64,000 nucleotides of DNA from Octopus vulgaris. Lineage: Eukaryota. Position numbers and translations under genes: made by a program. This document shows positions 1 to 53,490 of the stretch, piece by piece (positions within the stretch are counted from its first letter, which is position 1; each line of letters starts with the position of its first letter). Where the stretch lies: contig OX597838.1 of the NCBI GenBank assembly GCA_951406725.2, positions 25,854,001 to 25,918,000 on the forward strand. Direction: 5' to 3'. Under the pieces are notes generated by a model. The model was not told the origin of the DNA and ran no database searches. It was given only the letters and a program-made list of their open reading frames with translations.

Positions 1-699
1 AAATTTTATATAGCCCACTGTATTAATTTGCCTGGGAGTGGGGACTTATGAGTGTAAGGGGCCCAATTCCGATTTATGTATGATATGCCTTGCTGTCAAT
101 GAATAAATCTTATCGTGCCCAATAGATTGATTTGCCTGGGGGCTTACAGTGCTGCTAATATGGCCCTGTGTTGTGGTGTAATATAACTTTATGGTTTTGT
201 CTGTGATGTAAGCCTAGAGCTGTGTTGTTGTGGTGGTCTGGTGTGGTGTTGTGATCTGTTGAATGGCGTGTTGCACTTTGTGATGTGTTTTTGGTGCATA
301 AATTGGTAGTGATGGAACATGTATAATGGGAGATTGGTGGCGGTGGAGGATGTACTGGTGTAATGTGGGTGGTGATATGGTGTTGGTGGTGTAGTGTGCT
401 GATGATGTACATTATTGTTATTTAGCCCCAGGTCTGATCTGACTGGACAGAGAGACAGACCAATCATCAATGACTGTCTTAGGCATGACTATGTTCTCTT
501 CTGGAGTGATGTATCCCAGTCAACATCATCCAAGGGTAGCTTTGATAAGAATGTAGGATGTTATTTGAGGGAAATTTGGCTGCTATTTCTTGTAGGTCAA
601 ATGATCATGCAGAAGTCTCCCATAATTGGTCTCACATAAATAGTGCTGCTAGTTACCACAATAAGCTCAGAGTCACTCCCTTTTTGTAGAATACTTAGA

Positions 700-1022
700 A
701 AAAAGGAGCACTCCATCGATTATGACGAGGGTCCCTGCTGATACAATCAATGGAATAGCTTTCTCATGAAATTAACATGCAAGTGGTTGAGCACTCCACA
801 GACATGTGTACCCTTAATGTAGTTCTCAGGGAGATTCAGCATAACTGAATGTGACAAGGCTGACCCTTTGAAATACAGGTACTACTCATTTTTGCCAACT
901 GAGTAGACTGGAGCAATGTGAAATAAAGTGTCTTGCTCAAGGACACAACGCGTTGCCAGGACTTGAACTCATGACCTTACGATCGTGAGTAGAATGCCCT
1001 AACCACTAAGCCAGGCACCTTC
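700..1022 (-). mobile_element. tRNA-derived SINE (relatives near 7763, 13600, 47420, 60400)
   Basis: minus-strand head ggcttagtggttagggcattc...gagttcaagtcc (A/B boxes) then gtgtccttgagcaagacact core. Confidence 0.75.
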
Positions 1023-1201
1023 ACTGTAGAATACTATGATGATATCATTCAGAATAATTATGTGCTTTTATGATGATTATTATCTTTATGTTAATTACTA
1101 TAATTACTGGATGATTGCATTTTCTGTTTTTCTCTCCTTTTTTTTTTTCTATCTGTTGTCTCTGAAGTCTTTATCATCATTTATTTCCTCTTGTCTTTCA
1201 G

Positions 1202-1295
1202 AGTGGTATAAAGAATTCCTCTGGTTTTGTGAAAGGGGAAGATATTTTGGACATATGGTTTGATAGCGGTGTCTCTTGGGCCTGCATATTACAAG
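1202..1295 (+). CDS. IARS2: mitochondrial isoleucyl-tRNA synthetase exon (SGIKNSSGFVKGEDILDIWFDSGVSWACILQ)
   Basis: tttcag acceptor, g|gtaac donor; IleRS DILDIWFDSG motif. Confidence 0.95.
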
Positions 1296-1974
1296 GTAAC
1301 ATTTGTTGTAATTGTTGTTGCTGTTGGTGGTGGTGGCGGTGATGGTTGGCTTCCAGGTCTGCCATCAGCGGGCAGATCCAAGATCAAAGTTATTTCATCC
1401 ATGACCATCCTGTCTTTTAGCTTCTGAAGAAGCCAGCATTGTCCAATGTCTTTTATTCAACTTTCGGATGTGATTTGAGAGAGGGGTATTGGTTGCTATT
1501 TCTGGAGGCCAAGCAACCACAGATTTGCATCCTCACGTTGTGAGGACGCATTGTGTCCTTGAGCAAGACACTTTATTTCTTGCTGCTCTAGTCTACTCAG
1601 CTGGCAAAAATGCATTGTACATGTATTTCAAAGGGCCAGCCTTCTCACACTCTGTGTAACAGTTCTTGCCATTGATGGTGGAAATATCAATGAGCATTGC
1701 TCCTCCTCATCCTCATCCTCCTGGTGGGTGAAGTAAACTTATCTGTATGGGAAACACCTTTAATTAATCTGTATAGGATTGTTGGCCTTTGAATTAGAAT
1801 GTGTACTAAAGCTGATTAATGTAAATCAACCAAATGCGCAACCCTATTATATCAAAGGACTGTAAGACACTTATTCAGGAGAAACATGAATTGAAATGTA
1901 AGAAGAAAATGCTTTTTTATTAAATAAATTTTCAAAATGTATAACATGTATATATATATATATATATATATACA

Positions 1975-2225
1975 TCATCATCATCATTTAACGTCTGCTT
2001 TCCATGCTGGCATCGATCAGACGGTTTGACTGGGGTCTGGGAAGCCAGGAGGCTGCACTAGGCTCCAGTCTGATCTGGCAATATTTCTACAGCTGGATGC
2101 CCTTCCTAATGTCAACCACTCTGAGTGTGTAGTGGGTGCTTCTTTATGTGCCATTGGCACAGAGGCCCGAGGGGGCTGGTATCAACCACGATCGGATGGT
2201 GCTTTTTACGTGCGACCAGCACAGG
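1975..2225 (-). mobile_element. SINE/LINE 3'-tail repeat ending in (GAT)n (copies near 5170, 10140, 11445, 12838, 31605, 57895)
   Basis: shared ggaagggcatccagc...gcatggaaagcagacgttaaatgatgat on the minus strand. Confidence 0.75.
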
Positions 2226-2596
2226 AGCCAGTCATAGCAAGCAGCCTGGCAGAATCGTTAGCATGTTGGACAGAATGCTTAGTGGCATTTTGTCCTTCTT
2301 TGCAATCAAAGTTCAAACGCCATCAAGGTCAACTTTGCCTTTCATCCTTTTGGAATCAATGAAATATTTACCAGTTGAGCACAGGGATCAATATAACTGA
2401 TTAGCCCCACTATCTATCACCCAGCAAAATTTCAGGCATTGTGCCTATAGTAGAAAGGGTATTTAGTTAAATCCCATAATCTTCTGAGTACAAGTTCTCT
2501 GTGAGTTGACTTGGCCTTTCATTCCCTCTTTCAGAGTCATTTAGACAAGTACATGCTTTATATTAGTGTTTGTTCATTTGGCCCTTCTATTTACAG

Positions 2597-2705
2597 ATTC
2601 TAATGAAGAAGCTGATGTCTATTTGGAAGGACTTGACCAGTTTGGGGGCTGGTTTTTGTCCTCTCTTCTCACCAGTGTGGCCCTCAATGAAAAGCCCCCT
2701 TTCAA
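2597..2705 (+). CDS. IARS2: IARS2 exon ([37 protein letters not shown])
   Basis: ttacag acceptor, aa|gtgagt donor; YLEGxDQxGGWF motif; phase 1 in, phase 2 out. Confidence 0.95.
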
Positions 2706-3305
2706 GTGAGTTATCCCTTATTTGAAATTATTTTTTTTTATTGCTATCTAGATTGTCTTTTTTTTCATTTCATCCTTTACTTCATAATTGTTTTAGTCAT
2801 TGGACTGTGGCCATGCTGGGGCACTACCTTGAAAGGTTTTCAGTTGAATAGATTGACCCCTCAGGACTTACTTTTAATTCTGGTACTTTTTCCATCAGTC
2901 TCTCATGCCAAATTGCTAAGTTACAGGGACATAAACAAACCAACACTGGTTATGGAGAAGGGTGGGGACAAACATACAAAGACACACACATAATTACATA
3001 CATACACACACACATGTATAAATATACATATATATGTATACATACATATGTATATATACATATATATATGTATACATACATATGTGTGTGTGTGTGTGTG
3101 TGTATATATCATACAAATAAACCATTTAAACATCTGTAATTCTCCATTTTCTTCCTTTCATCATTATTAAAAATATGTATTACTATAATAATCCTTAACA
3201 TATTGCAGAGCCTTTCTCTTTATATGATAGGGATTAACCAGTGAGATTTTTGGATTGTTTAATCCCTAATGAGGACCTGACATCCTCAAATTGACTGACT
3301 ATACA

Positions 3306-3352
<47 letters not shown>

Positions 3353-3441
3353 AGAAGAAAATGGATATAATAACAATGGGAAACTCGTGGTTTACACTAG
3401 CATGTCTTTAATTAAATCGGTAACAAAGGAGAGATGAGGTG

Positions 3442-3492
3442 GCATTTACGATTGTTTCGATTTACTGGTTTAAGTAAATCTCTTCAGAATGC
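3442..3492 (-). ncRNA. minimal type I hammerhead ribozyme (Penelope/retrozyme type)
   Basis: minus strand GCAUU-CUGAAGA-GAUUUAC(UUAAACCA)GUAAAUC-GAA-AC(AAUC)GU-A-AAUGC: complete core with perfect stems I and II. Confidence 0.85.
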
Positions 3493-4073
3493 AAAGATAG
3501 ATAGATAGATGCATCAGTTAGGATGCGAAAATGATTGATACATATGTGATGGTGATGTAAACAAATTGGTAATTCTTACATTAAATTTTTGTTCTTGCAC
3601 TGGTAAATTCGCTGAGTAGAGGTTTGCTTGTAGTAGATTGGTTAGTTTCGTTGGGAAATTAGGGCAGGGTGAATATCATTTAGGTGCAAGCTACTTCGTT
3701 TAATTAAGCACGTGTGTGTGTGTGTGCATATGCACACAATTTTCAGCTACGAAATTCATTGGCAAGGCATTGATTAGTCATAGGGTATAGTAGAAGACAC
3801 TTACCCAAGGTGCTGCGCTGTGTGACTGAACCTGAAACCGCATAATCGCAAAACAGGCTTTAAACCACACAGCCACGACTGCACTTATACAAATATTCTT
3901 TCAACACATTTTCTATAACATTTACCATAGACACTTTTATGCAGCTCTTTCTTTGTATGTGCATTCAGTTAGAGGTCCCTGTTAAACATCAGTTCATAGC
4001 TGTGTGTAGGTGTATACAGCTGCACACAATCAACTGCATCACTGCACTATCATCTGTGTTGTTGTCTTTACAG

Positions 4074-4176
4074 GTCTCTTGTGGTTCATGGGTTCACAGT
4101 TGATGCGGATGGTAAGAAAATGTCCAAATCTGTCGGAAATGTCATAGATCCGATGGATGTTGTGGATGGATCCAAG
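4074..4176 (+). CDS. IARS2: IARS2 exon with class I aaRS KMSKS motif ([34 protein letters not shown])
   Basis: ttacag acceptor, aag|gtaggc donor; HGF...KMSKSxGNVIDP. Confidence 0.97.
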
Positions 4177-4411
4177 GTAGGCACATTTGGCCTACATGTG
4201 ATGTTATAGGCTTTTATCCTATTCATTCTCCTATGTTCTCACACACACACATTCTTTATTTCTTATGGTCATGTGCTGCGGTGGTTGCCAACCTCCTACT
4301 TCTATCCAACAGCAGTTTACTCTCCTCCTCCTCCTCCTTCTCCTCCTCCTCCTCTAATAGATGGTCTCTCATCACTGACTTTGTATTTTTTGTTGGTTTC
4401 TTTCACTTCAG

Positions 4412-4534
4412 GCCAGTGGTATTCCATCCTATGGAGCTGATGTCCTGCGATGGTGGGTGGCCACTTCGGGACTACAGAGTAACATCCCCATCGGAAGTTC
4501 AATCCTCACCAGGTGTAACGAGGAAGTATTTCGG
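4412..4534 (+). CDS. IARS2: IARS2 exon (ASGIPSYGADVLRWWVATSGLQSNIPIGSSILTRCNEEVFR)
   Basis: cttcag acceptor, cgg|gtgagt donor; YGADVLRWWVA motif. Confidence 0.96.
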
Positions 4535-4557
4535 GTGAGTGAGAATGAAAATTTTAC

Positions 4558-4560
<3 letters not shown>

Positions 4561-4612
<52 letters not shown>

Positions 4613-4815
4613 CTACTTTCGGCACAAGGCCTGAAATATTTTGTAGAGGTGTGCTGTTAATTACATCGACCTCAGTACTCCACTGGTACTTATTTTATCG
4701 ACCCTCAGAGGATGAAAGGTAAAATTGACTGGCGAAATTTGAATTCAGAATGTAGGTGGACAAAATTCCACTAGGCATTCTGCCTGGTATGCTAATGATT
4801 CTGCCAGCTTGTCAC
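4561..4815 (-). mobile_element. tRNA-derived SINE with gcctttcatcct..gggtcgataaaataagtacc core and (TTA)n tail
   Basis: same family as the tandem arrays; core resembles the Meta-domain SINE core. Confidence 0.8.
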
Positions 4816-5479
4816 TTTAGCATCATCATCATGATAATAATCTACTATAATAATACTCTTGTGTTTTTCTCCAACACAACATGTGAATGAAAAAGGAAAG
4901 GGTGATAAGTGAATAAGGAAGGAAGGGGTGATGGCAAATTGGTAGTGGCAGCATTTCAACTCTGTGTGTGTATATGTAAAAGGGAGGTATGTGAATGTGT
5001 GTGTGTGTGTGTGTGTGCAATGAAAGTGGGATAGTGAACATTCAACGCTGAAAAGAAAAATCAAACAGCGTTTCAACTCTGTGTGAGTATATGTGTGTGT
5101 GTTAGTACAAGGGAAGTATGTGAATGTTTGTATGTGTGAACCAGTGTTCTTTCAGTAACAAATGATGATCGATGTCACATCAAGCCGAGCAAAATCGCAG
5201 GCGTGGCAGATACCGGTGTCACACAAATGGCACATAAAAGCACCCATTACACTCTCAGAGTGGTTGGCATTAAGAAGGGCCATCCAGCCGTAGAAAACCA
5301 TGCCAAATCAGACTGAAATCTGGTGCAGCCTTCCAGCATGCCAGCCTGGTCAAACCACCCAACCTATACCAGTATGGACAGCAGACATTAACTGATGATG
5401 ATGATAACGATAATGATCTCAAAAGACAACCATTAGATAACATTGACTAGTGTATTAATTTGATTTACCATCCATATAT

Positions 5480-5872
5480 TCTTTTACTCGTTTACTTCTT
5501 TCAGTCATTTGACTGCGGCCATTCTGGAGCACCGCCTTTAGTCGAGCAAACCGACCCCAGGACTTATTCTTTGTAAGCCTAGTACTTATTCTATCGGTCT
5601 CTTTTTGCCAAACCGCTAAGTTATGGGGACATAAACACGCCAGCATCGGTTGTCAAGCGATGCTGGGGGGACAAACACACACACACACACACACACATAT
5701 ACATACATATATACGATGGGCTTCTGTTCAGTTTCCGTCTACCAAATCCACTCACAAAGCTTTGGTTGGCCCGAGGCTATAGTAGAAGACACTTGCCCAA
5801 GTTGCCACACAGTGGGACTGAACCCCAGAACCACGTAGCTGGTAAGGAAGCTACTTACCACACAGCCACTCC
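5480..5872 (-). mobile_element. tRNA-derived SINE with internal (CA/TA)n
   Basis: near-identical to 7065-7468; head ggctgtgtggtaag...ggttcagtccc. Confidence 0.85.
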
Positions 5873-6024
5873 TATGCCTATGTATGTATGTATATATGTC
5901 ATGTATGTCACATATATATATGTGTGATATGTAAGGAGTACATTTGTTGGTGTGCCTGTGTCTGTTGCATACATGTAACATGAAGATGTAACATAATGTT
6001 GTTGTTTTTGTTTGTTTGTTGCAG

Positions 6025-6156
6025 TTACGCAAGACTTGCCGGTTCCTGTTGGGTAATCTCTGGGATTTCACACCTGACAAAGACAGCGTCTCCTACAACC
6101 AGCTGCTTGCACAGGACAGCTATATGTTGCACCTGCTGCATGACTTTGCACTCAAG
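6025..6156 (+). CDS. IARS2: IARS2 exon, anticodon-binding domain (LRKTCRFLLGNLWDF...LLHDFALK)
   Basis: ttgcag acceptor, aag|gtaagg donor; LRxTxRFLLGNL motif. Confidence 0.95.
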
Positions 6157-6183
6157 GTAAGGATACATGTGAGTGTGTGTGTT

Positions 6184-6227
<44 letters not shown>

Positions 6228-6584
6228 TAGTTGTAAGAGGAAGATTGTACACACACACTCTTCCTCATACAACTAGACTCTTCTTCACCACACATATATA
6301 TATACATACACCCACACATATATGCACACATAGACACATATGCACACACATAAACATGCACCCACACATACATGTACACATACACACATACATACACATA
6401 TACACTCCTTCAGATCTACTGGATGCCTATTCTTATGTCACTTACCAATGAGACCCTTGCACTCATGAAATTTGCCAAAAGTACTGTTGTTGCACTCTTT
6501 ATAAGCCAGACCAGGTCTGACCTGTGAGTCATCCACAAAAACTGCTCATGATGATGATGATGATGATGTATGTGTTTGTTGCAG

Positions 6585-6691
6585 GCGATCCAACTTTATG
6601 CTGACCATCGTTACAATAAAGTCACTTCTATTGTTGACCGCTTCATCAGTGCTGATGTATCCAGTTTCTACAGTTCCATTATCAAAGACAG
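6585..6691 (+). CDS. IARS2: IARS2 exon (AIQLYADHRYNKVTSIVDRFISADVSSFYSSIIKDR)
   Basis: ttgcag acceptor, ag|gtataa donor; SxFY..IIKDR motif. Confidence 0.94.
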
Positions 6692-7064
6692 GTATAAAGT
6701 CTTCTCTCTCTCACTGTCTCTCTCCCTCACTCTCTCTCTCTCTGTCTCCCTCTCTCTCACTGTCTCTCTCTCCCTCTCTCTCACTGTCTCTCTCACTGTC
6801 TCTCTCTCTCTCTCTCTCTGCTTTTATGTGTATGACCAAATGTGTGTATTTCTGTGTGAGTCAAGTTACAGGATTCTGTTTATGAGGTGGGGATGGGGGG
6901 ATGTAAACACTCATCGTTTTTACTCATACGATGAAAGCACCTACACTCACACGCATATGCTCCCCCCACATGCACACACTTGGATATACATATACACATG
7001 GCAGGCTTCTGTACAATCTCTTTCTATCAGCTGTTGCACACAGGGCATTTGTTGGTCTGGGATA

Positions 7065-7468
7065 TTCTTACTCTTTTGCTTGTTTCAGTCATTTGACTGC
7101 GGCCATGCTGGAGCACTGCCTTTAGTCGAGCAAATCGACCCCAGGACTTATTCTTTGTAAGCCTAGTACTTATTCTATCGGTCTCTTTTGCTGAACCACT
7201 AAGTTACGGGGATGTAAACACACCAGCATCAATTGTCAAGTGATGTTGGGGGGACAAACACAGACACACAAACACATACACACGGATACATATATACATA
7301 CATATATACGACGGGCTTCTTTCAGTTTCCATCTACCAAATCCACTCACAAGGCTTTGGTCGGCCTGAGGTTATAGTAGAAGACACTTGCCCAAGGTGCC
7401 ACGCAGTGGGAATGAACCCGGAACTATGCGGTTGGTAAGCAAGCTACTTACCACACAGCCACACCTGC
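7065..7468 (-). mobile_element. tRNA-derived SINE, same family as 5480-5872
   Basis: colinear high similarity; further copies near 2790, 12678-13487, 29740, 57130. Confidence 0.85.
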
Positions 7469-8055
7469 AAACTTTTAAGTCACACAGCCATGTGTGTGTG
7501 TGTGTGTGTGTGTGTGTTAGCATGTGTTCATAGCCGCATATCTTTGCCTTGTTACCATCTTGCTGGTGACATTGCTTCTAATTCCCATAAACAAAATGTC
7601 TGGGAAAACTGGGTGTAAAAAAATAAGGATTATGTACATATATATATGCATGTATGTGTACAAATATATGTCTATATATGTATATTTATATATGTATGTC
7701 TATGTATGTGTGTACAAATGTATATTTGTGTGTGTGTATGTATATATATGTGTGTGTGTATGTGGAAGTGTGTAGTTTAGTGGTTATGGTGTTGGACAAC
7801 TGTAAGATTGTGGTTTCAATTCCTGGACTGAGTGATGCATTGTGTTCTTGAGCAAGACACTTTATTTCATGTTGCTCCAGTCCACTCAGCTGGCAAACAT
7901 GAGTGATCCTGTCTGGTGAAGGAATATATACCCCACAGAAACTGGGAAACTAGAATGACAAGCCTATATCACTTAGAAAGGACCTTTGATCTGTGTGCGT
8001 GCATATTTGTGTGCGTACATATGTATATATTTATATGTATATATACATACATGTA

Positions 8056-8292
8056 CAGGGTGGCCCAAAAGTAGGTTTACAGTTATTCAACTATCTCTTT
8101 CGCATTCATATATTAACAGTTTAGATCTTAATTATAAAAAAAAATATGAAACCATTATTCTATGCTAATTTAGTTAATTTTATCAAGCTCCCTTTTCAGT
8201 TTGTAACATGAAAATTTAAATGTAATAAAATGTTTTAAAAAACATTCAAAGTGCCTATGTGAAAACTGTAGACCTACTTTTGGGCCACCCTG
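8056..8292. mobile_element. Tc1/mariner-type MITE
   Basis: 29-bp TIRs cagggtggcccaaaagtaggt(t/c)tacagtt, TA on both flanks. Confidence 0.92.
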
Positions 8293-8312
8293 TATATATA
8301 AATATATATATA

Positions 8313-8366
<54 letters not shown>

Positions 8367-8389
8367 AGTGTATAAGCTTATCCTTACAG

Positions 8390-8544
8390 GTGTTACTGTG
8401 ACAGTAGAGACAGCCTTGCGAGAAGGTCCTGCCAGACAGTCCAGTACAATATATTAGATGTTCTGATTAGGCTTTTGGCACCAATTCTGCCACACTTTGC
8501 CGAGGAAGTCTTCCAATATTTACCAAAATTACAACACCAACAAG
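8390..8544 (+). CDS. IARS2: IARS2 exon (CYCDSRDSLARRSCQTV...APILPHFAEEVFQYLPKLQHQQ)
   Basis: ttacag acceptor, g|gtaaca donor; RRSCQT and APILPHxAEEV motifs. Confidence 0.95.
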
Positions 8545-8859
8545 GTAACAACATCAGTTTCCTTTCCTTCCATGTCAGTGTCTCCTTCCCTGCATGCCTC
8601 TCTGTCTATATTGCTGTTTGTCTGTCTTCCAACCACTGTTACTCACCTGCCTACCTACTTATCTACCTACCATCCATCCTTCCTGCCCCACCTATCTCTC
8701 TCTCTCTCACACACACACAAATGAATAAATAGAGTTTCAGAGATGCTTATTATGCGAACCAGTCAAACTTTTCCCTATTTCAAAAGAAAGCTTTTTTCCA
8801 TTAGAACCATAAATAAATTTATATAACCTTTTCAATTTCCATCCAGCTTCACTCAGAAT

Positions 8860-10030
8860 TCCTGGGAAGGGCAAGGTGGGAGATAAATTCCTCAGGCACC
8901 TTCTGTACAGGCTCCTATCAGAAGCAACCATCATTACACTTCCCTGCTGGATCCCGAAATATCACCAACTCAGACTAAGGATATTATCCAACCATCTCAT
9001 TCTAGGTCGACCCCTAGGTCTCCTACCAGTCAAAGGGTAGAGTCTTCAGGTACCTCCTCCATAATGTCTTATCAGAAGCAACCATCATTACACTTCCCTG
9101 CTGGATCTCCAAGCATGACCAACTCAGACTATGGACATTATCCAGCCATCTCATTCTTGGTCTACCCCTTGGTCTCCTACCAATTGGCTTGGTTTGAAAA
9201 ATCCATTTTGCAATTCTTTCCTGTGACATTCTAATCACATGTCCATAATATCAGAGCCATGACCTCTCAATGCAGAGAAGTGGTGGCTCAATCTGGAGAG
9301 ACTGCCTGATTGCTGAGCTACACACCCTGTCAAGTAATACCAACTACTTCAGAAATCCTTTAGCAGACCTCCATTTCATCCACTTAGTATTCATGATTAT
9401 TTCAGTCACTACCCAACATTCATGACCAACTCCATCAATATTATCCAACCATTTCATTCTTGGTCCACCCCTTTGTCTCCTGCCTTATCTTGATTAATCC
9501 ATCATGCAATTCTTTCCTGCAACATTCTAATCACATGTCCATAGTAGTGGAGCTGTGACTTCTCAATGCAGAGAAGTGGTGGCTCAACCTGGAGAGACTC
9601 CATGATCTCTGAGTTAAACATCCTGTTAAGTAATGCTAGTCTAGAGATCCTTTAGTGGACAGCACTTCAGCCACTTGTATTCGTGATTGTACTCTTGGTC
9701 ATCACCCAACATTCCCGACTAACTGCAACTATGGACATTATCCAACCACCTCATTCTTGGTTTACCCCTTAGGTCTTCTGCTGGCTGGTGCAGCTTAAAG
9801 AATCTGTCTTGAAATTTTTTCATGCAACATTCCAATCACATGTCTATACTACCTGAGCTGTGATCCCTCGATGCAGAGACATAGTGGCCTGACCTGGAGA
9901 GATGCCCTGATCTCTGAGCAAGATCTTTCAGAAGAAAGCCATTTCAGCCACTTGCTTTTGTGATTGTACTCTTTCAGTCATTACCCAACATTTATGAACA
10001 TAGGTAAGGATTGGCACAAAAACTGAATTA
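8860..10030 (-). mobile_element. tandemly reiterated 3' fragments of an RTE-clade LINE
   Basis: ORF 9023-9238 IRMSQERIAK...GRRPRGRPRMRWLD...DKTLWR matches RTE ORF C-terminal motifs; about 4 diverged overlapping copies. Confidence 0.75.
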
Positions 10031-11186
10031 AACATAAGACACTTTAAGCTTTTCCATCCATTGTCTTGTCTGTAACATTATGGGGCATAAATTGTGTAAA
10101 TTTAGATCTTTGGCCCTTTAGCATTTAAACTGGCCAAATCCATGTAAAAAGCATCCAGTTCACACTGTGAAGTGGTTGGAATTTGGAAGGGCATCCAGCT
10201 GTAAAAACTGTGCCTAAGCAAACCTCACCAATGTTTGTACCATGTAAAAAGCACCCAGGTCACTCTGTAAAGTGGTTGGCATTAGGAAGGGCATCCAGCT
10301 GCAGAAACCATGCCGAAACAGACAGTAAAGTCTGGTGCAGTCTTCTGTCTTGCCAGCTCTTGTCAAACTGTCCAACCCACGCCAGCATGGAAAACAGACA
10401 TTAAATGATGATGATGATGATGATATCTGGCCAAAACATTCTACCTGTTTTATATTCAAATTGGCCATATCTGGTCTTTCACACCTACCCTGTAATGCCA
10501 TTCTTGAAATAAACCACCATATCATCAAAGTTTCAAAGCTGCAGGGTCATAAATGATTAATTTAGAACAATGTGAATAAATAAGCCTTAAATTTGGAGGG
10601 AGAGATCTGAATGTTGAAGGGGTAACAAGATAAAGAAATGGATAGCATTTAGTTGTTGAGTATGATGTCTGCTTCTGGTTTGTAAGTTTAAAATTTGTTG
10701 AAATGGAAAAGTGCATAAAAATTATGAATAAATCACAAACACCATTGCTGATATGAATAAATACTTATTTCTTTAATACCCACAAGGGGCTAAACATAGA
10801 GGGGACAAACAAGGACAGACATAGTTATTAAGTCGATTACATCGACCCCAGTGCGTATTCTCCACAGCTAATTCCATCACCACCCATGTCACCACTGGCA
10901 CCATCACCACCACCACCACCATCATATCATGACTACCACTATCATTACCATCACCACCTCCATAACCAAGACTACCACCACCACCATCGCCAGCAAGACC
11001 ACCACCACCTCTAAAACCGTCACCTTCATCACCACCACCACCATCATCACCAAAACCATCACAACTACCATCACCATCAGCACTACACTATCGTCCCTCT
11101 GCTACCACAAAGGTGAAGCTGATATAAATGAATGCTAACCACTCCCTTCTTTTTTTCTTTTTTTTTTTTCCATCTCATGTCCCCAG

Positions 11187-11374
11187 ATTGTAACAGTCTG
11201 TTTAAGACTACAGGCCACAACATCAACCCAGAATGGGAAGATTTAGCAGGTTACCACCGTTTTCAACCAAGTCTGCAGATCAAGGCCCGGTTCAACGAAA
11301 TGATTGGTCCAGAGACCCCTTCCTCCTTTGATGTCGTCATCTGGGCTTCTGGTGACCTTTATGATAACCTTAAG
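11187..11374 (+). CDS. IARS2: IARS2 exon (DCNSLFKTTGHNINPEWEDL...SGDLYDNLK)
   Basis: ccccag acceptor after a pyrimidine tract, aag|gtaagt donor; phase matches both neighbours. Confidence 0.9.
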
Positions 11375-11380
11375 GTAAGT

Positions 11381-11414
<34 letters not shown>

Positions 11415-11738
11415 TACATGTACATACATAGACACACACATATCATCATTTAATGTCTTTTGCCCATGCTGGCATGGGTTGGACAGTTTGACCTCTCAAA
11501 GGAGGACAACAGATGATGATTTAAAACTTTTTTTTAATATATTGGAGAGTTAGGTAATTAACGAAGGGGGATAATTGTCCTAGAGGGAGCAATTGTCCTC
11601 AGTGGGTAATTGTCCTGATATGTGCTGGGGAGCTGCACCAGACTCCAGTGTGATTTGGTATGGTTTCTATGGGTGGATGCCCTTCCTAACACCAACCACT
11701 TTACAGAGTGTGCTGGATGCTCTTATATGGCACTATGC

Positions 11739-11963
11739 CAGTGCTTTTCAAACTTTTTGCTGGAGCGGAACCCCAAGGAAACATTCCACTGGCTCGAGGA
11801 ACCCCTGTGCAATAATTTAATAGTCTTATGCACACATATCTGCACAGGAGACTTTAAAATTACTGCCGATTTTAGCAGTTTTGTAACTTCTTGCGGAATC
11901 CCTGGACTGTACTGGCGTCTGCATAACCCTAAGGTTCTGCGGAACCCCAGTTGAAAACCACTG
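11739..11963. mobile_element. hAT (Charlie/Buster-like) MITE nested in a SINE-like repeat
   Basis: TIRs cagtgcttttcaa / ttgaaaaccactg; perfect 8-bp TSD CACTATGC at 11731-11738 and 11964-11971. Confidence 0.93.
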
Positions 11964-12278
11964 CACTATGCAGACACTTTTATATGGTGCTGAATGAGCG
12001 CCTTTACGTGGTACTGCATAGGTGCTTATATGTTGCACCACACAGGTGCTTGTACATGCTGCTGCATGGGCACTTTTATGTGGTACTGCCATGAGTGCTT
12101 TACACGATCAGAAGGATCGATCCTAACACTTCTGCTGCAGAGCAAGGGTCTTCATGAGTACAGCAAGGTGCCAGGAATTATCGGCCCTTTGTCATCTTGC
12201 CTGAAAGCTTTGGCATCTCGAGGTCATTCTTCAGTACTTCATCCCATGTCTTCCTGGGTCTCCCTCTTCCGCATGTTC

Positions 12279-15082: not shown

Positions 15083-15680
15083 GAGTGCAGCTGTATAGCT
15101 CCACTCAAATGTCAGCAGCAGATGACACATTGAGGGATGGAGCCATCATGTCACTCTCTCTATTCAAGGACGACAGAAGACAGGGGACTCATACCAAACC
15201 TTCAGTGGGAGTGCAGTTGTATAGCTTCACTCAAGTGACAACTGCAGACTGTCTGTGAGTGCAACTGTCAATCCACACTTGAATAACAACTGTAAACTCA
15301 AAGAGTGCAGCTGTATATCTCAAATCAAATGACAACAGAGACTACCAGTGAGTGTAGCTGTTCATCTCTACTCAAGTGATAACAGAAGACCCAGTGAGTG
15401 CAACAGTAAGTCTCCATTCAAGTGACAACAGTGTCAGTGAGTGCAGCTGTCAGTCTCCACTAAAATGACAACAGCAGTCTATCAGTGAGTGAATCTGTAA
15501 GTTTGTACTCAAGTGACAACAGTTGACTTGAGTGTATTTGTAAGTCCGCACTCAAGTGACAGCAATAGACTCAGTGAGTGCAGCTGTCAGTCTGCACTCA
15601 AATGAGAACAACACTCTGTCAGTGAGTGGAACTTTCAGTCTCCACTCAAGTGACAACAACAGACCCAGTGAATGCAACTA
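15083..15680 (+). repeat. degenerate tandem array of ~12 units (43-49 bp), each with an internal hairpin, downstream of the IARS2 stop
   Basis: recurring cagTGAGTGcagctgtcagtctcCACTCAagtgacaaca; perfect 9-bp stem at 15575-15600. Confidence 0.9.
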
Positions 15681-17111
15681 TAACTAATGAGGACATTATT
15701 GTGAAATCGTTAAGAAAATAATTGTTTAAATTTGTAAAAGTCATCTTTTGATGATTTTAAAATCTGTGATTCAACGGAAATTGAATTGTTTTTTGTTTGT
15801 TTGTCTTTGATATTAAATTGTTTTGATTACATGGTAGTCCTGTCATAAATGAGAGATGAGGGCCCTGCAGCTTGTTGCTGAGTAACCTGTAGGGATCATT
15901 TGTTTAATGTTTGTGCTGTGCATCAGCTCCCTTCCCCTCCAACAGATCGGCCCCTGAGACGAAGGGATTACTGAATAAAGTGAAATAAATAAAGTGTTTT
16001 GCTCAGGAAAACAATGCATAGCTTGGTCTGGGAATTGAAACCGTGATCTTGGGATCATGAGTGCAACACCCTAAACACTAGACCATTAGCCTTCACATTG
16101 ATTATATACTTACATACATACATATGCACACACACACACACACACACTCACACATATGCAAGCTTGCATGCATACATCTACAAATACATGTATGTTAACA
16201 TCCATGTATACACACACACACACACATACAGAGGCATAAACATTACACACATGTACATACACACACACATGCAGGCATGCATACAGACATACACTCATAC
16301 ATATATAGATATGTATGTATATAAACATCTATGCAGAGAGACACATACAGACACACAGATACACATATACATAAATACACATACATACCTCATATACACA
16401 CACATTACACAGACATACATTAGACATAAACACACACATACCTAAACATATACATTACACACACACATATTACATATAAACACACATACATTACACACAC
16501 ATATTACACAAACACACACACACATGCATATATTACACACATATACAAACACGGACACACACTCACACACACAATGAATGTTATGTTGACGATGGGTATT
16601 TTGTGGATTAAATCAAGTAAACTCATCATAAATTTACATATATGTGCCTGAGTACTCCATAGACACATGTACCTCCGAAATACAGATACAGTCCACATGG
16701 CAGGTTTCCGCATACTTTCTATTCACTTATTTTCGGTCACATAGCTCGGGTCCGTCGAAGGCCATGGTAAAAAAAAATACACTTGGTCCAAGATATTGCC
16801 TAGTTGGGGATTGAACTGAGAAACGATGCAACTTCAAAAGGCAAACTGCTTGAATGTGTCTGCATCCATTCACAGAGGTACAGAAGGCAGAAGGAGACAA
16901 TTGGGAGCGGCTGTTTTGATGTTGGTAGCTGCTAGGCACAGTGGAGTGGACATTGAACTTGGCTTGGCCACAGTACTTTTTGGCACTGGATAGAACTGAC
17001 TCACACACACATGCATGCACTGCATGGAAACATAGATAGATAGATGGACATGATATATGTATTTACATTATTTATATTTGACGGATATTTGTCCTCATCT
17101 TGCTTGTTGCT

Positions 17112-53174: not shown

Positions 53175-53490
53175 TCAAGCTTGATGGCCTTCGCTACCAA
53201 GCTTTGGTGGACACACTCGAGACCAAGCTTGCTGGCCAAACTTGAGACCAAGCTTGATGGCCAAACTTGAGACCAAGCTTGCTGGCCAAACTTGAGACCA
53301 AGCTTGATGGCCAAACTTGAGACCAAGCTTGATGGCCAAACTGGCCAAACTTGAGACCAAGTTTGCTGGCCAAGCTTGAGACCAAGCTCGATGGCCAAGC
53401 TTGAGACCAAGCTCGATGGCCAAGCTCGATGGCCAAGCTCGAGACCAAGCTTGATGGCCAAACTTGAGACCAAGCTTGATGGCCAAACTT
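53175..53490. repeat. minisatellite of alternating 12/13-bp subunits (ccaaacttgaga + ccaagcttgatgg)
   Basis: 25-bp higher-order unit visible directly. Confidence 0.92.

What the first reader, a model, noticed from the sequence alone, without database searches (positions are those of the whole stretch)
3442..3492. Intact canonical hammerhead antisense within an IARS2 intron
All conserved core nucleotides are present, with a 5-bp stem I, a 7-8-bp stem II and a GUA cleavage triplet. Loop III AC-AAUC-GU is one CpG-type transition from the palindrome ACGAUCGU. It lies in a ~350-bp non-SINE segment (about 3351-3710) abutting a (TA)n run, consistent with a Penelope terminal repeat. The antisense orientation spares the IARS2 pre-mRNA from cleavage (inference).
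Basis: partly seen in the sequence, partly recalled or inferred. Interest (0 to 1): 0.7.

Follow-up and report, generated by a model that had tools for sequence, protein, structure and literature searches.

The report
Decayed retrotransposon hammerhead in octopus intron
A self-cutting RNA motif really lies backwards in an intron of an octopus housekeeping gene, but it is one worn copy of a common repeat, most likely the tail end of a Penelope-like jumping gene, and this copy has lost the short palindrome that such ribozymes need to pair up and cut.

Summary
Window 3492-3442 (minus strand) is a type I hammerhead: full core, 5-bp helix I, 8-bp helix II, GUA site. It is the only descriptor hit in 64 kb, and 1 of 300 shuffles gave a comparable one. 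It lies antisense in intron 2706-4073 of octopus IARS2.

Segment 3351-3711 is a dispersed repeat: 346, 288 and 262 contig pieces in three DNA runs. Variation concentrates in loop II; none of the 40 rows shown touches the core.

This copy is 5'-truncated, ends on (TA)22 and differs from the family majority at 15 of 336 places. Its one change inside the ribozyme removes the predicted dimer helix (+0.3 versus -10.0 kcal/mol). So it is neither functionally intact nor 'canonical'.

Best reading: the 3' terminal repeat of a Penelope-like element, now inert. No RT or GIY-YIG gene could be linked, as no genome is held; only a short endonuclease-like end motif supports it. Hammerheads of this build, including one from an octopus element, are in print. 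Ordinary.

The parts
3442..3492 (-). Type I hammerhead motif of Penelope-like build (helix I 5 bp, helix II 8 bp, 2-bp helix III with 4-nt loop, GUA triplet; predicted cut between 3447 and 3446)
3448..3455 (-). Helix III/loop III octamer; self-complementary in the family majority, broken in this copy by a CpG-type transition at 3453
   Evidence: table 3; (self-duplex +0.3 versus -10.0 kcal/mol)
3351..3711 (-). 5'-truncated 3' end of a dispersed repeat, read as the pseudo-LTR of a Penelope-like element; 15 of 336 covered places differ from the majority of all three DNA runs, plus a short deletion near 3428-3437
   Evidence: tables 1-4 and 7; no second copy in the window
3642..3710 (-). 22 open codons and a TAA stop, 149 nt upstream of the hammerhead; possible last codons of a GIY-YIG endonuclease (inferred; motif clearer in other copies than here)
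   Evidence: loose ends at 3686-3687 translated by hand; compared by eye with Fig. S2 of PMC8557442; database searches blank
3307..3350 (.). (TA)22 run at the element's 3' end; probable target site
   Evidence: other copies also end on TA-rich flanks at 3352-3353 (table 7)
3712..3726 (.). (GT)n run at the 5'-truncation junction, followed by a different repeat (recalled as a common octopus SINE-like repeat, not tested)
   Evidence: depth of the family falls to zero from 3702 (table 2, where repeats at 3700-3735 were skipped)
2706..4073 (+). Host intron of mitochondrial isoleucyl-tRNA synthetase (IARS2), GT...AG
4074..4177 (+). IARS2 exon carrying the KMSKS motif, downstream of the intron

Best explanation
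The segment 3351-3711 is the 3' end (pseudo-LTR) of a Penelope-like retroelement with a C-terminal endonuclease. It was reverse-transcribed from its 3' end into a TA/GT microsatellite of an IARS2 intron and broke off after about 360 bases. In the active family the hammerhead cannot form a stable helix III alone. Two copies in one tandem transcript, or helped by the element's protein, pair their 8-nt palindromes into an intermolecular helix III and cut after GUA. This genomic copy is a passive relic: single, antisense to the host transcript, about 4.5% diverged from the majority, and with the palindrome broken by CpG decay, so it very probably never cuts. Shown: fold, multi-copy status, truncation, TA junction, palindrome in the majority, divergence. 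Inferred: the link to an RT/GIY-YIG ORF, the insertion route, dimer-dependent cleavage, inactivity of this copy.
For: Dispersed repeat: 346, 288 and 262 pieces laid in three DNA runs of three coded organisms, covering 3352-3687. Shared loose ends go on beyond both ends: 7, 6+4 and 6 contigs at 3686-3687; 9, 11 and 9 contigs at 3352. Another 9 contigs (X6) and 1 (X1) run into TA-rich flanks at 3352-3353, which fits a 3' terminus with an optional extension like the 30-40 bp PLE 'tail' (PMC8557442; PMC11167929). Listed variation: loop II 4 of 6 places, core plus helices 2 of 41, core alone 0 of 13 (Fisher p=0.0012). The one helix II variant is G-C to G-U, and two loop variants with equal depth in X2 would add an A-U pair. 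The build matches PLE hammerheads: helix II 7-8 bp, helix I 4-5 bp, G10.1-C11.1, palindromic helix III (PMC4209133). The closest printed example, S. kowalevskii(2) in its Fig. S3, is the hammerhead of Penelope-1_SK in File S2 of PMC8557442. The motif lies 91 nt from the TA end; four printed examples lie about 30-110 nt from their 3' ends (worked out by hand). Upstream on the same strand, other copies read I/V-x4-P-x-L-N before a stop, like the last GIY-YIG motif of Poseidon and Nematis; the pattern occurs once in 127,996 codons of the window. PLEs are abundant in Octopus (PMC13282606).
Against: No RT or GIY-YIG domain in six frames of window 1-12000, and no genome to extend the repeat. The 44-residue read-through found no protein. 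The endonuclease motif rests on 30-letter loose-end consensuses read by hand; the expected Glu four places before the Ile reads Lys or Gln there, and this copy has Leu for Pro. Core plus helices are not significantly more conserved than the rest of the repeat (2 of 41 versus 32 of 285, p=0.17). Eight variant rows were not shown. [quoted passage not shown] Runs of three coded organisms are related samples of one family, not independent origins. No cleavage was measured.
Confidence: 0.78

Rival explanations
1. A non-autonomous, pLTR-derived element (non-LTR retrozyme or SINE-like) that keeps the hammerhead, has no full ORF and is moved by PLE enzymes; this locus is a solo, truncated monomer.
For: High copy number with no ORF found. 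Animal retrozymes are 170-400 nt, occur in molluscs and also as solo monomers, and are proposed to derive from pLTRs (PMC7229834; 10.64898/2026.07.22.740005).
Against: Single copy in the window. No joint from one end of the stretch back to the other among the 3 joints listed. The left-hand continuation seen in other copies is not part of the stretch. The hammerhead is of PLE build, not the canonical 6/4-bp build. An endonuclease-like motif lies at the upstream end.
Confidence: 0.14
2. The copy has been kept by the host for a function, either as an active ribozyme on an antisense transcript or as an antisense target in the IARS2 pre-mRNA that pairs with element RNA.
For: All 13 core letters and both long helices are unchanged in this copy. 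Only 1 of its 15 private changes falls in the 51-nt motif.
Against: One change in 51 nt is near what 4.5% divergence gives by chance (about 2 expected), and it is the one that breaks the dimer helix. Helix I is disfavoured in context. There is no partner copy in the window. Related PLE hammerheads show no activity as monomers (PMC4209133) or without the element's protein (PMC11167929).
Confidence: 0.04
3. The hammerhead look is accidental: a hairpin in an unrelated repeat with core-like letters around it.
For: No Rfam match; folding z-score only -2.1, with 6 of 200 shuffles as stable; no two-sided change within helices I or II among the rows shown.
Against: 1 of 300 shuffled windows gives a comparable hit. 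The family majority has the predicted palindrome, which no descriptor asked for. Variation sits in loop II.
Confidence: 0.02

Closest known systems
Hammerheads in pseudo-LTRs of metazoan Penelope-like elements, variant with a small palindromic helix III (Cervera and De la Pena 2014, PMC4209133)
   Same: Type I; helix II 7-8 bp; helix I 4-5 bp; G10.1-C11.1; palindromic helix III and loop; mostly solo, in truncated copies; U-rich 5' flank.
   Different: No extra nucleotide between 9 and 10.1 (also missing in 2 of the 56 motifs of Fig. S3 as laid out). No cephalopod among those 56. This copy's palindrome is broken.
Hydra-clade PLE hammerheads, e.g. Penelope-1_SK, Penelope-2_NV, Hydra-1_aMil, Hydra-1_oBim (Craig et al. 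2021, PMC8557442, Files S1 and S2)
   Same: Core followed directly by a long helix II in these four; sense strand, close to the 3' end; (TA)n target; one member is from Octopus.
   Different: Helix and flank sequences differ from Hydra-1_oBim, so this is another family. The frame upstream lacks the CxH motif that follows the conserved Asn in Hydra, and looks more like Poseidon or Nematis.
Poseidon element PAc of Anolis (Frangieh et al. 2024, PMC11167929)
   Same: Minimal hammerhead in the pLTR, with the element's 3' ends some 85-92 nt past the cut site (about 96 nt here) and an optional tail.
   Different: In PAc the ORF starts at helix II. Here the stretch after the hammerhead takes indels of many sizes (table 4), so no ORF start there is supported.
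Non-LTR retrozymes of animals (PMC7229834; 10.64898/2026.07.22.740005)
   Same: Type I hammerhead in a short, AT-rich, multi-copy repeat of a mollusc.
   Different: Not in tandem here; not the canonical 6/4-bp build; ends on (TA)n; endonuclease-like motif upstream.

Membership tests
Type I hammerhead ribozyme | Conserved core CUGANGA, GAAA, UH with three helices | tested here: met
   helix III is only 2 bp and is not predicted to form
Type I hammerhead ribozyme | Match to a curated Rfam hammerhead model | tested here: not met
   0 matches at gathering score in 64 kb; none of 8 matches at E<=10 in 3300-3760 is a hammerhead
Type I hammerhead ribozyme | Site-specific self-cleavage | not testable with these tools
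   no assay; contigs cannot show RNA ends
PLE-type hammerhead (PMC4209133 consensus) | Helix II 7-8 bp, helix I 4-5 bp, G10.1-C11.1 | tested here: met
   8 bp, 5 bp, G-C; G-U in 5-86% of depth in other runs
PLE-type hammerhead (PMC4209133 consensus) | Extra nucleotide between 9 and 10.1 | tested here: not met
   absent; also absent in 2 of 56 printed motifs, one of which is a Hydra-clade PLE hammerhead
PLE-type hammerhead (PMC4209133 consensus) | Palindromic helix III/loop III, family level | tested here: met
   92-99% of depth in three DNA runs
PLE-type hammerhead (PMC4209133 consensus) | Palindromic helix III/loop III, this copy | tested here: not met
   two mismatches in the homodimer; self-duplex +0.3 kcal/mol
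EN+ Penelope-like element | Dispersed, 5'-truncated copies sharing a 3' end that holds the hammerhead | tested here: met
   tables 1, 2 and 7; 91 nt to the TA run
EN+ Penelope-like element | Telomerase-like RT ORF upstream | not testable with these tools
   none in window 1-12000, but the copy is cut off; no genome; no relatives in collections
EN+ Penelope-like element | C-terminal GIY-YIG endonuclease | tested here: inconclusive
   I/V-x4-P-x-L-N in loose ends of other copies (by hand; background 1 in 127,996 codons); Glu not seen; searches blank
EN+ Penelope-like element | Insertion into (TA)n (Hydra, Naiad and some other clades) | tested here: met
   File S1 of PMC8557442
EN+ Penelope-like element | Partial tandems, inverted 5'-truncated copies, optional 30-40 bp tail | tested here: inconclusive
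   2 contigs with opposite-strand joints; shared extension past 3352 in 9, 11 and 9 contigs, seen for 30 letters only
Hydra clade | CxxC and CxH motifs either side of the conserved Glu and Asn | tested here: not met
   no CxH between the Asn and the stop in the window's frame (definition); depends on the frame being right
Naiad | No canonical hammerhead; N-terminal endonuclease | tested here: not met
   a full descriptor-fitting hammerhead is present (definition)
Non-LTR retrozyme | Head-to-tail repeats of 170-400 nt, each with a hammerhead | tested here: not met
   single copy; no end-to-start joint among 3 listed; short contigs could hide arrays elsewhere
Non-LTR retrozyme | Abundant circular RNA | not testable with these tools
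   no raw RNA reads offered

The most novel reading that the evidence does not exclude
An octopus PLE family, not found in the supplement I searched, joins a Hydra-type hammerhead to a Poseidon/Nematis-type endonuclease end. Its many recent copies keep a perfect dimerising palindrome, so sense intronic copies could cut host pre-mRNA by pairing in trans or with help from the element's protein. Selection would then leave intronic copies antisense or palindrome-broken, as this one is on both counts. The family would be a natural test of whether PLE hammerheads cut in vivo.
Probability: 0.1. Interest if true: 0.55.

Novelty: new member of a known kind. Interest (0 to 1): 0.17.

Why it matters
As a single locus it matters little: solo hammerheads in truncated Penelope-like copies number in the thousands in several animal genomes (PMC4209133), and a hammerhead from an octopus PLE is already listed (PMC8557442 File S2). 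The modest value is at family level. Whether PLE hammerheads cut in vivo is unresolved (PMC8557442; PMC11167929 found no read ends at the cut site and no need for cleavage in vitro). A multi-copy family with a one-letter on/off mark for dimer formation would allow an orientation-by-palindrome test in introns. One search for such a test found 1 unrelated paper.

Tried and rejected
No whole genome is held, so genome BLAST, copy count, orientation bias and orthologous-site checks could not be run.

Rfam found no hammerhead. Family-specific patterns found 0 loci in metagenome, GTDB and viral contigs. Relaxed core patterns gave 2 and 19 loci, none with helices of 4 bp, so they were used as a negative control only.

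Protein searches with the candidate endonuclease end were blank: Pfam on 22 aa, word search on 44 aa, phmmer on 1.84 billion proteins. These are weak tests for so short and decayed a query. Pfam on six frames of 1-12000 found only tRNA-synt_1 and Anticodon_1; 12001-64000 was not scanned.

Expression: no RNA holder is listed as on record. Run X1 (RNA is a guess) holds a 187-nt piece identical to 3428-3614, but it has only 19 letters on one side of the cut site, shows no strand and may be DNA, so nothing is drawn from it.

An upstream CUGAUG at 3517-3512 was rejected as a second core: the family majority differs at 3516. An ORF start at the AUG in helix I was rejected because of mixed-size indels just downstream (table 4).

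Earlier findings of the scan: none by sequence, place or the full word set; the eight shown for 'hammerhead Penelope' concern other genomes. The supplement of PMC8557442 has 0 hits for short motifs of this family; line breaks or cut runs may hide a hit. Lunse et al. (dimer cleavage) is not held and is known here only through a review passage. Supplements of PMC13282606 (the O. vulgaris repeat library may already hold this family) and of the bioRxiv preprints were not seen.

Full report
Observation. The minus strand at 3492-3442 carries a complete type I hammerhead core with a 5-bp helix I, an 8-bp helix II closed by G10.1-C11.1 around a 6-nt loop, a 2-bp helix III with a 4-nt loop, and a GUA triplet. 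It is the only hit of a relaxed descriptor on both strands of the window. Of 300 block-wise dinucleotide shuffles, 2 gave any hit, 1 gave helix I>=5 with helix II>=7, and 0 gave this geometry. As a control, 21 public loci that match the core letters alone include none with a helix I or II of 4 bp. Against the motif: Rfam finds no hammerhead here; the fold z-score is -2.1, with 6 of 200 shuffles as stable; helix II is robust (pair probability 0.93-0.98), but helix I falls from 0.86 alone to 0.02-0.05 with flanks, and helix III stays at 0.03-0.04.

Host. An exon at 8385-8546 is identical over 96% of 54 residues to a protein named mitochondrial isoleucine--tRNA ligase of Octopus sinensis. That protein maps to ten exons on the + strand between 1199 and 14337.

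The repeat. No genome is held, so I laid contigs of 4 of the 24 listed runs on window 3351-3735. The three DNA-type runs, from three coded organisms, gave 346, 288 and 262 pieces, most at 80-95% identity, covering 3352-3687. Summed depth is in the thousands in X2 and X6, where single long contigs show about 30-80. That suggests some hundreds of copies, but this is my rough inference and the tool warns that it is no copy number. There is no second copy in the window. Loose ends (23 rows shown, 170 hidden) show that the family goes on past both ends of this copy. At 3686-3687, 7, 6+4 and 6 contigs share a continuation that matches the window to 3711 and then departs from it, so this copy is 5'-truncated at a GT run. 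At 3352, 9, 11 and 9 contigs share one extension, while 9 contigs of X6 and 1 of X1 run into TA-rich flanks. That fits a 3' terminus on (TA)n with an optional extension. Two contigs show opposite-strand joints; none of the 3 listed joints returns from one end to the other.

Variation. Of 40 variant rows shown (8 hidden), none touches the 13 core letters. Four of 6 loop II places vary, against 2 of 41 core and helix places (Fisher p=0.0012). One of those two turns G10.1-C11.1 into G-U (5%, 86% and 25% of depth); the other is the outer pair of helix I. Two loop variants have equal depth in X2 and would add an A-U pair. Core plus helices are not significantly more conserved than the rest of the repeat (32 of 285, p=0.17). 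This copy differs from the majority of all three runs at 15 of 336 places, 4 of them CpG decay, and only that one lies in the motif. Computed self-duplex of the helix III octamer is +0.3 kcal/mol here against -10.0 for the majority. The strand-swapped dimer is -16.2 against -28.2, where two monomer folds give -13.4.

What the repeat is. PMC4209133 (main text parts 1-2 of 4 and supplement parts 1-2 of 3 read) describes PLE hammerheads with helix II of 7-8 bp, helix I of 4-5 bp, G10.1-C11.1, a palindromic helix III and an extra nucleotide after position 9. Most occur as solo motifs in truncated copies; a single motif did not cleave and dimers cleaved weakly. All features but the extra nucleotide are met at family level. 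Two of its 56 printed motifs also lack that nucleotide. One of them, S. kowalevskii(2), has the same overall build and reappears as the hammerhead of Penelope-1_SK in File S2 of PMC8557442 (passages, section 11 and parts of the supplement read). That file also lists a hammerhead for Hydra-1_oBim of Octopus bimaculoides, a different sequence, and File S1 gives (TA)n as the target. The motif here ends 91 nt from the TA run; four printed examples end about 30-110 nt from their 3' ends (by hand). Upstream on the same strand, 3710-3645 is open for 22 codons and stops 149 nt before the motif. Loose ends of other copies, translated by hand in that frame, read K/Q-M-C-L-I/V-K-x-G-x-P ahead of H-L-N, several of the differences being at third positions. 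This resembles the closing E-x3-I-x4-P-x-L-N of Poseidon and Nematis endonucleases in Fig. S2. The pattern I/V-x4-P-x-L/I/M-N occurs once in 127,996 codons of the window. Against: the Glu is not seen, this copy has Leu for Pro, the pattern was chosen after seeing the data, no protein search found a relative, and no RT or GIY-YIG domain lies in 1-12000. The CxH motif of the Hydra clade is absent, so the clade stays open. PLEs are reported as abundant in O. vulgaris (PMC13282606, passages; 0 occurrences of 'hammerhead' in its main text).

Mechanism. I infer target-primed reverse transcription from the 3' end of a PLE RNA into a TA/GT microsatellite, aborted after about 360 nt. In active tandem transcripts two hammerheads pair their palindromes to build helix III and cut after GUA (PMC4209133; review passage in PMC6765202). 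In the one PLE reconstituted in vitro, the hammerhead cut only with the element's protein present, and cleavage was not needed for insertion (PMC11167929, passages). This copy is solo, antisense and palindrome-broken, so it is very probably inert. The antisense orientation does keep the motif out of the IARS2 pre-mRNA, but one locus cannot show selection, and the copy would probably not cut in sense either.

Rivals. A non-autonomous pLTR derivative (retrozyme-like; PMC7229834 and 10.64898/2026.07.22.740005, passages) is not excluded, but there is no tandem here and the hammerhead is not of the canonical build. Domestication has no support. Chance is unlikely, since the family shows a palindrome that the descriptor did not ask for.

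Novelty. Searches found no description of this particular family, but PLE hammerheads of this build, an octopus PLE hammerhead, and 235 Rfam hammerhead hits in giant squid (PMC6962438, passages) are in print. The O. vulgaris repeat library, not seen, may already hold the family. Verdict: new member of a known kind, interest 0.17.

Noticed in passing
window 3459: In run X6 (coded organism B) 86% of depth has G-U in place of the conserved G10.1-C11.1 pair, against 5% in X2 and 25% in X7, so a wobble-pair subfamily seems to have spread there.
   Followed up: partly
window 3428-3437: Other copies are longer here, with indels of many sizes; on the minus strand the stretch is pyrimidine-rich and is followed by an AG. 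It could be a 3' splice region of a pLTR intron, as in Drosophila Penelope, or simply a slippery tract.
   Followed up: no
window 3409-3417 and 3700-3708: The palindrome TTAATTAA occurs near both ends of the repeat.
   Followed up: no
window 15209-15683: Tandem array of a 43-48 bp unit, about 10 copies, with higher-order periods of 94 and 137 bp, just downstream of the last IARS2 exon found.
   Followed up: no
window 53196-53490: Tandem array of a 25-bp unit, about 12 copies, 87% matches, inside open frames of 100-141 codons on the minus strand.
   Followed up: no
window 8887-9900: Several imperfect repeats of a longer unit in an IARS2 intron; minus-strand frames resemble the end of an RTE-type LINE ORF (motif recalled, no Pfam hit).
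   Followed up: no
L005:2045-2094, L006:270-319, L012:2643-2692: Three metagenome contigs share one sequence with hammerhead core letters, a 3-bp G-C base to helix II and the same palindrome; my strict test found no helix I. It may be a bulged microbial hammerhead.
   Followed up: no
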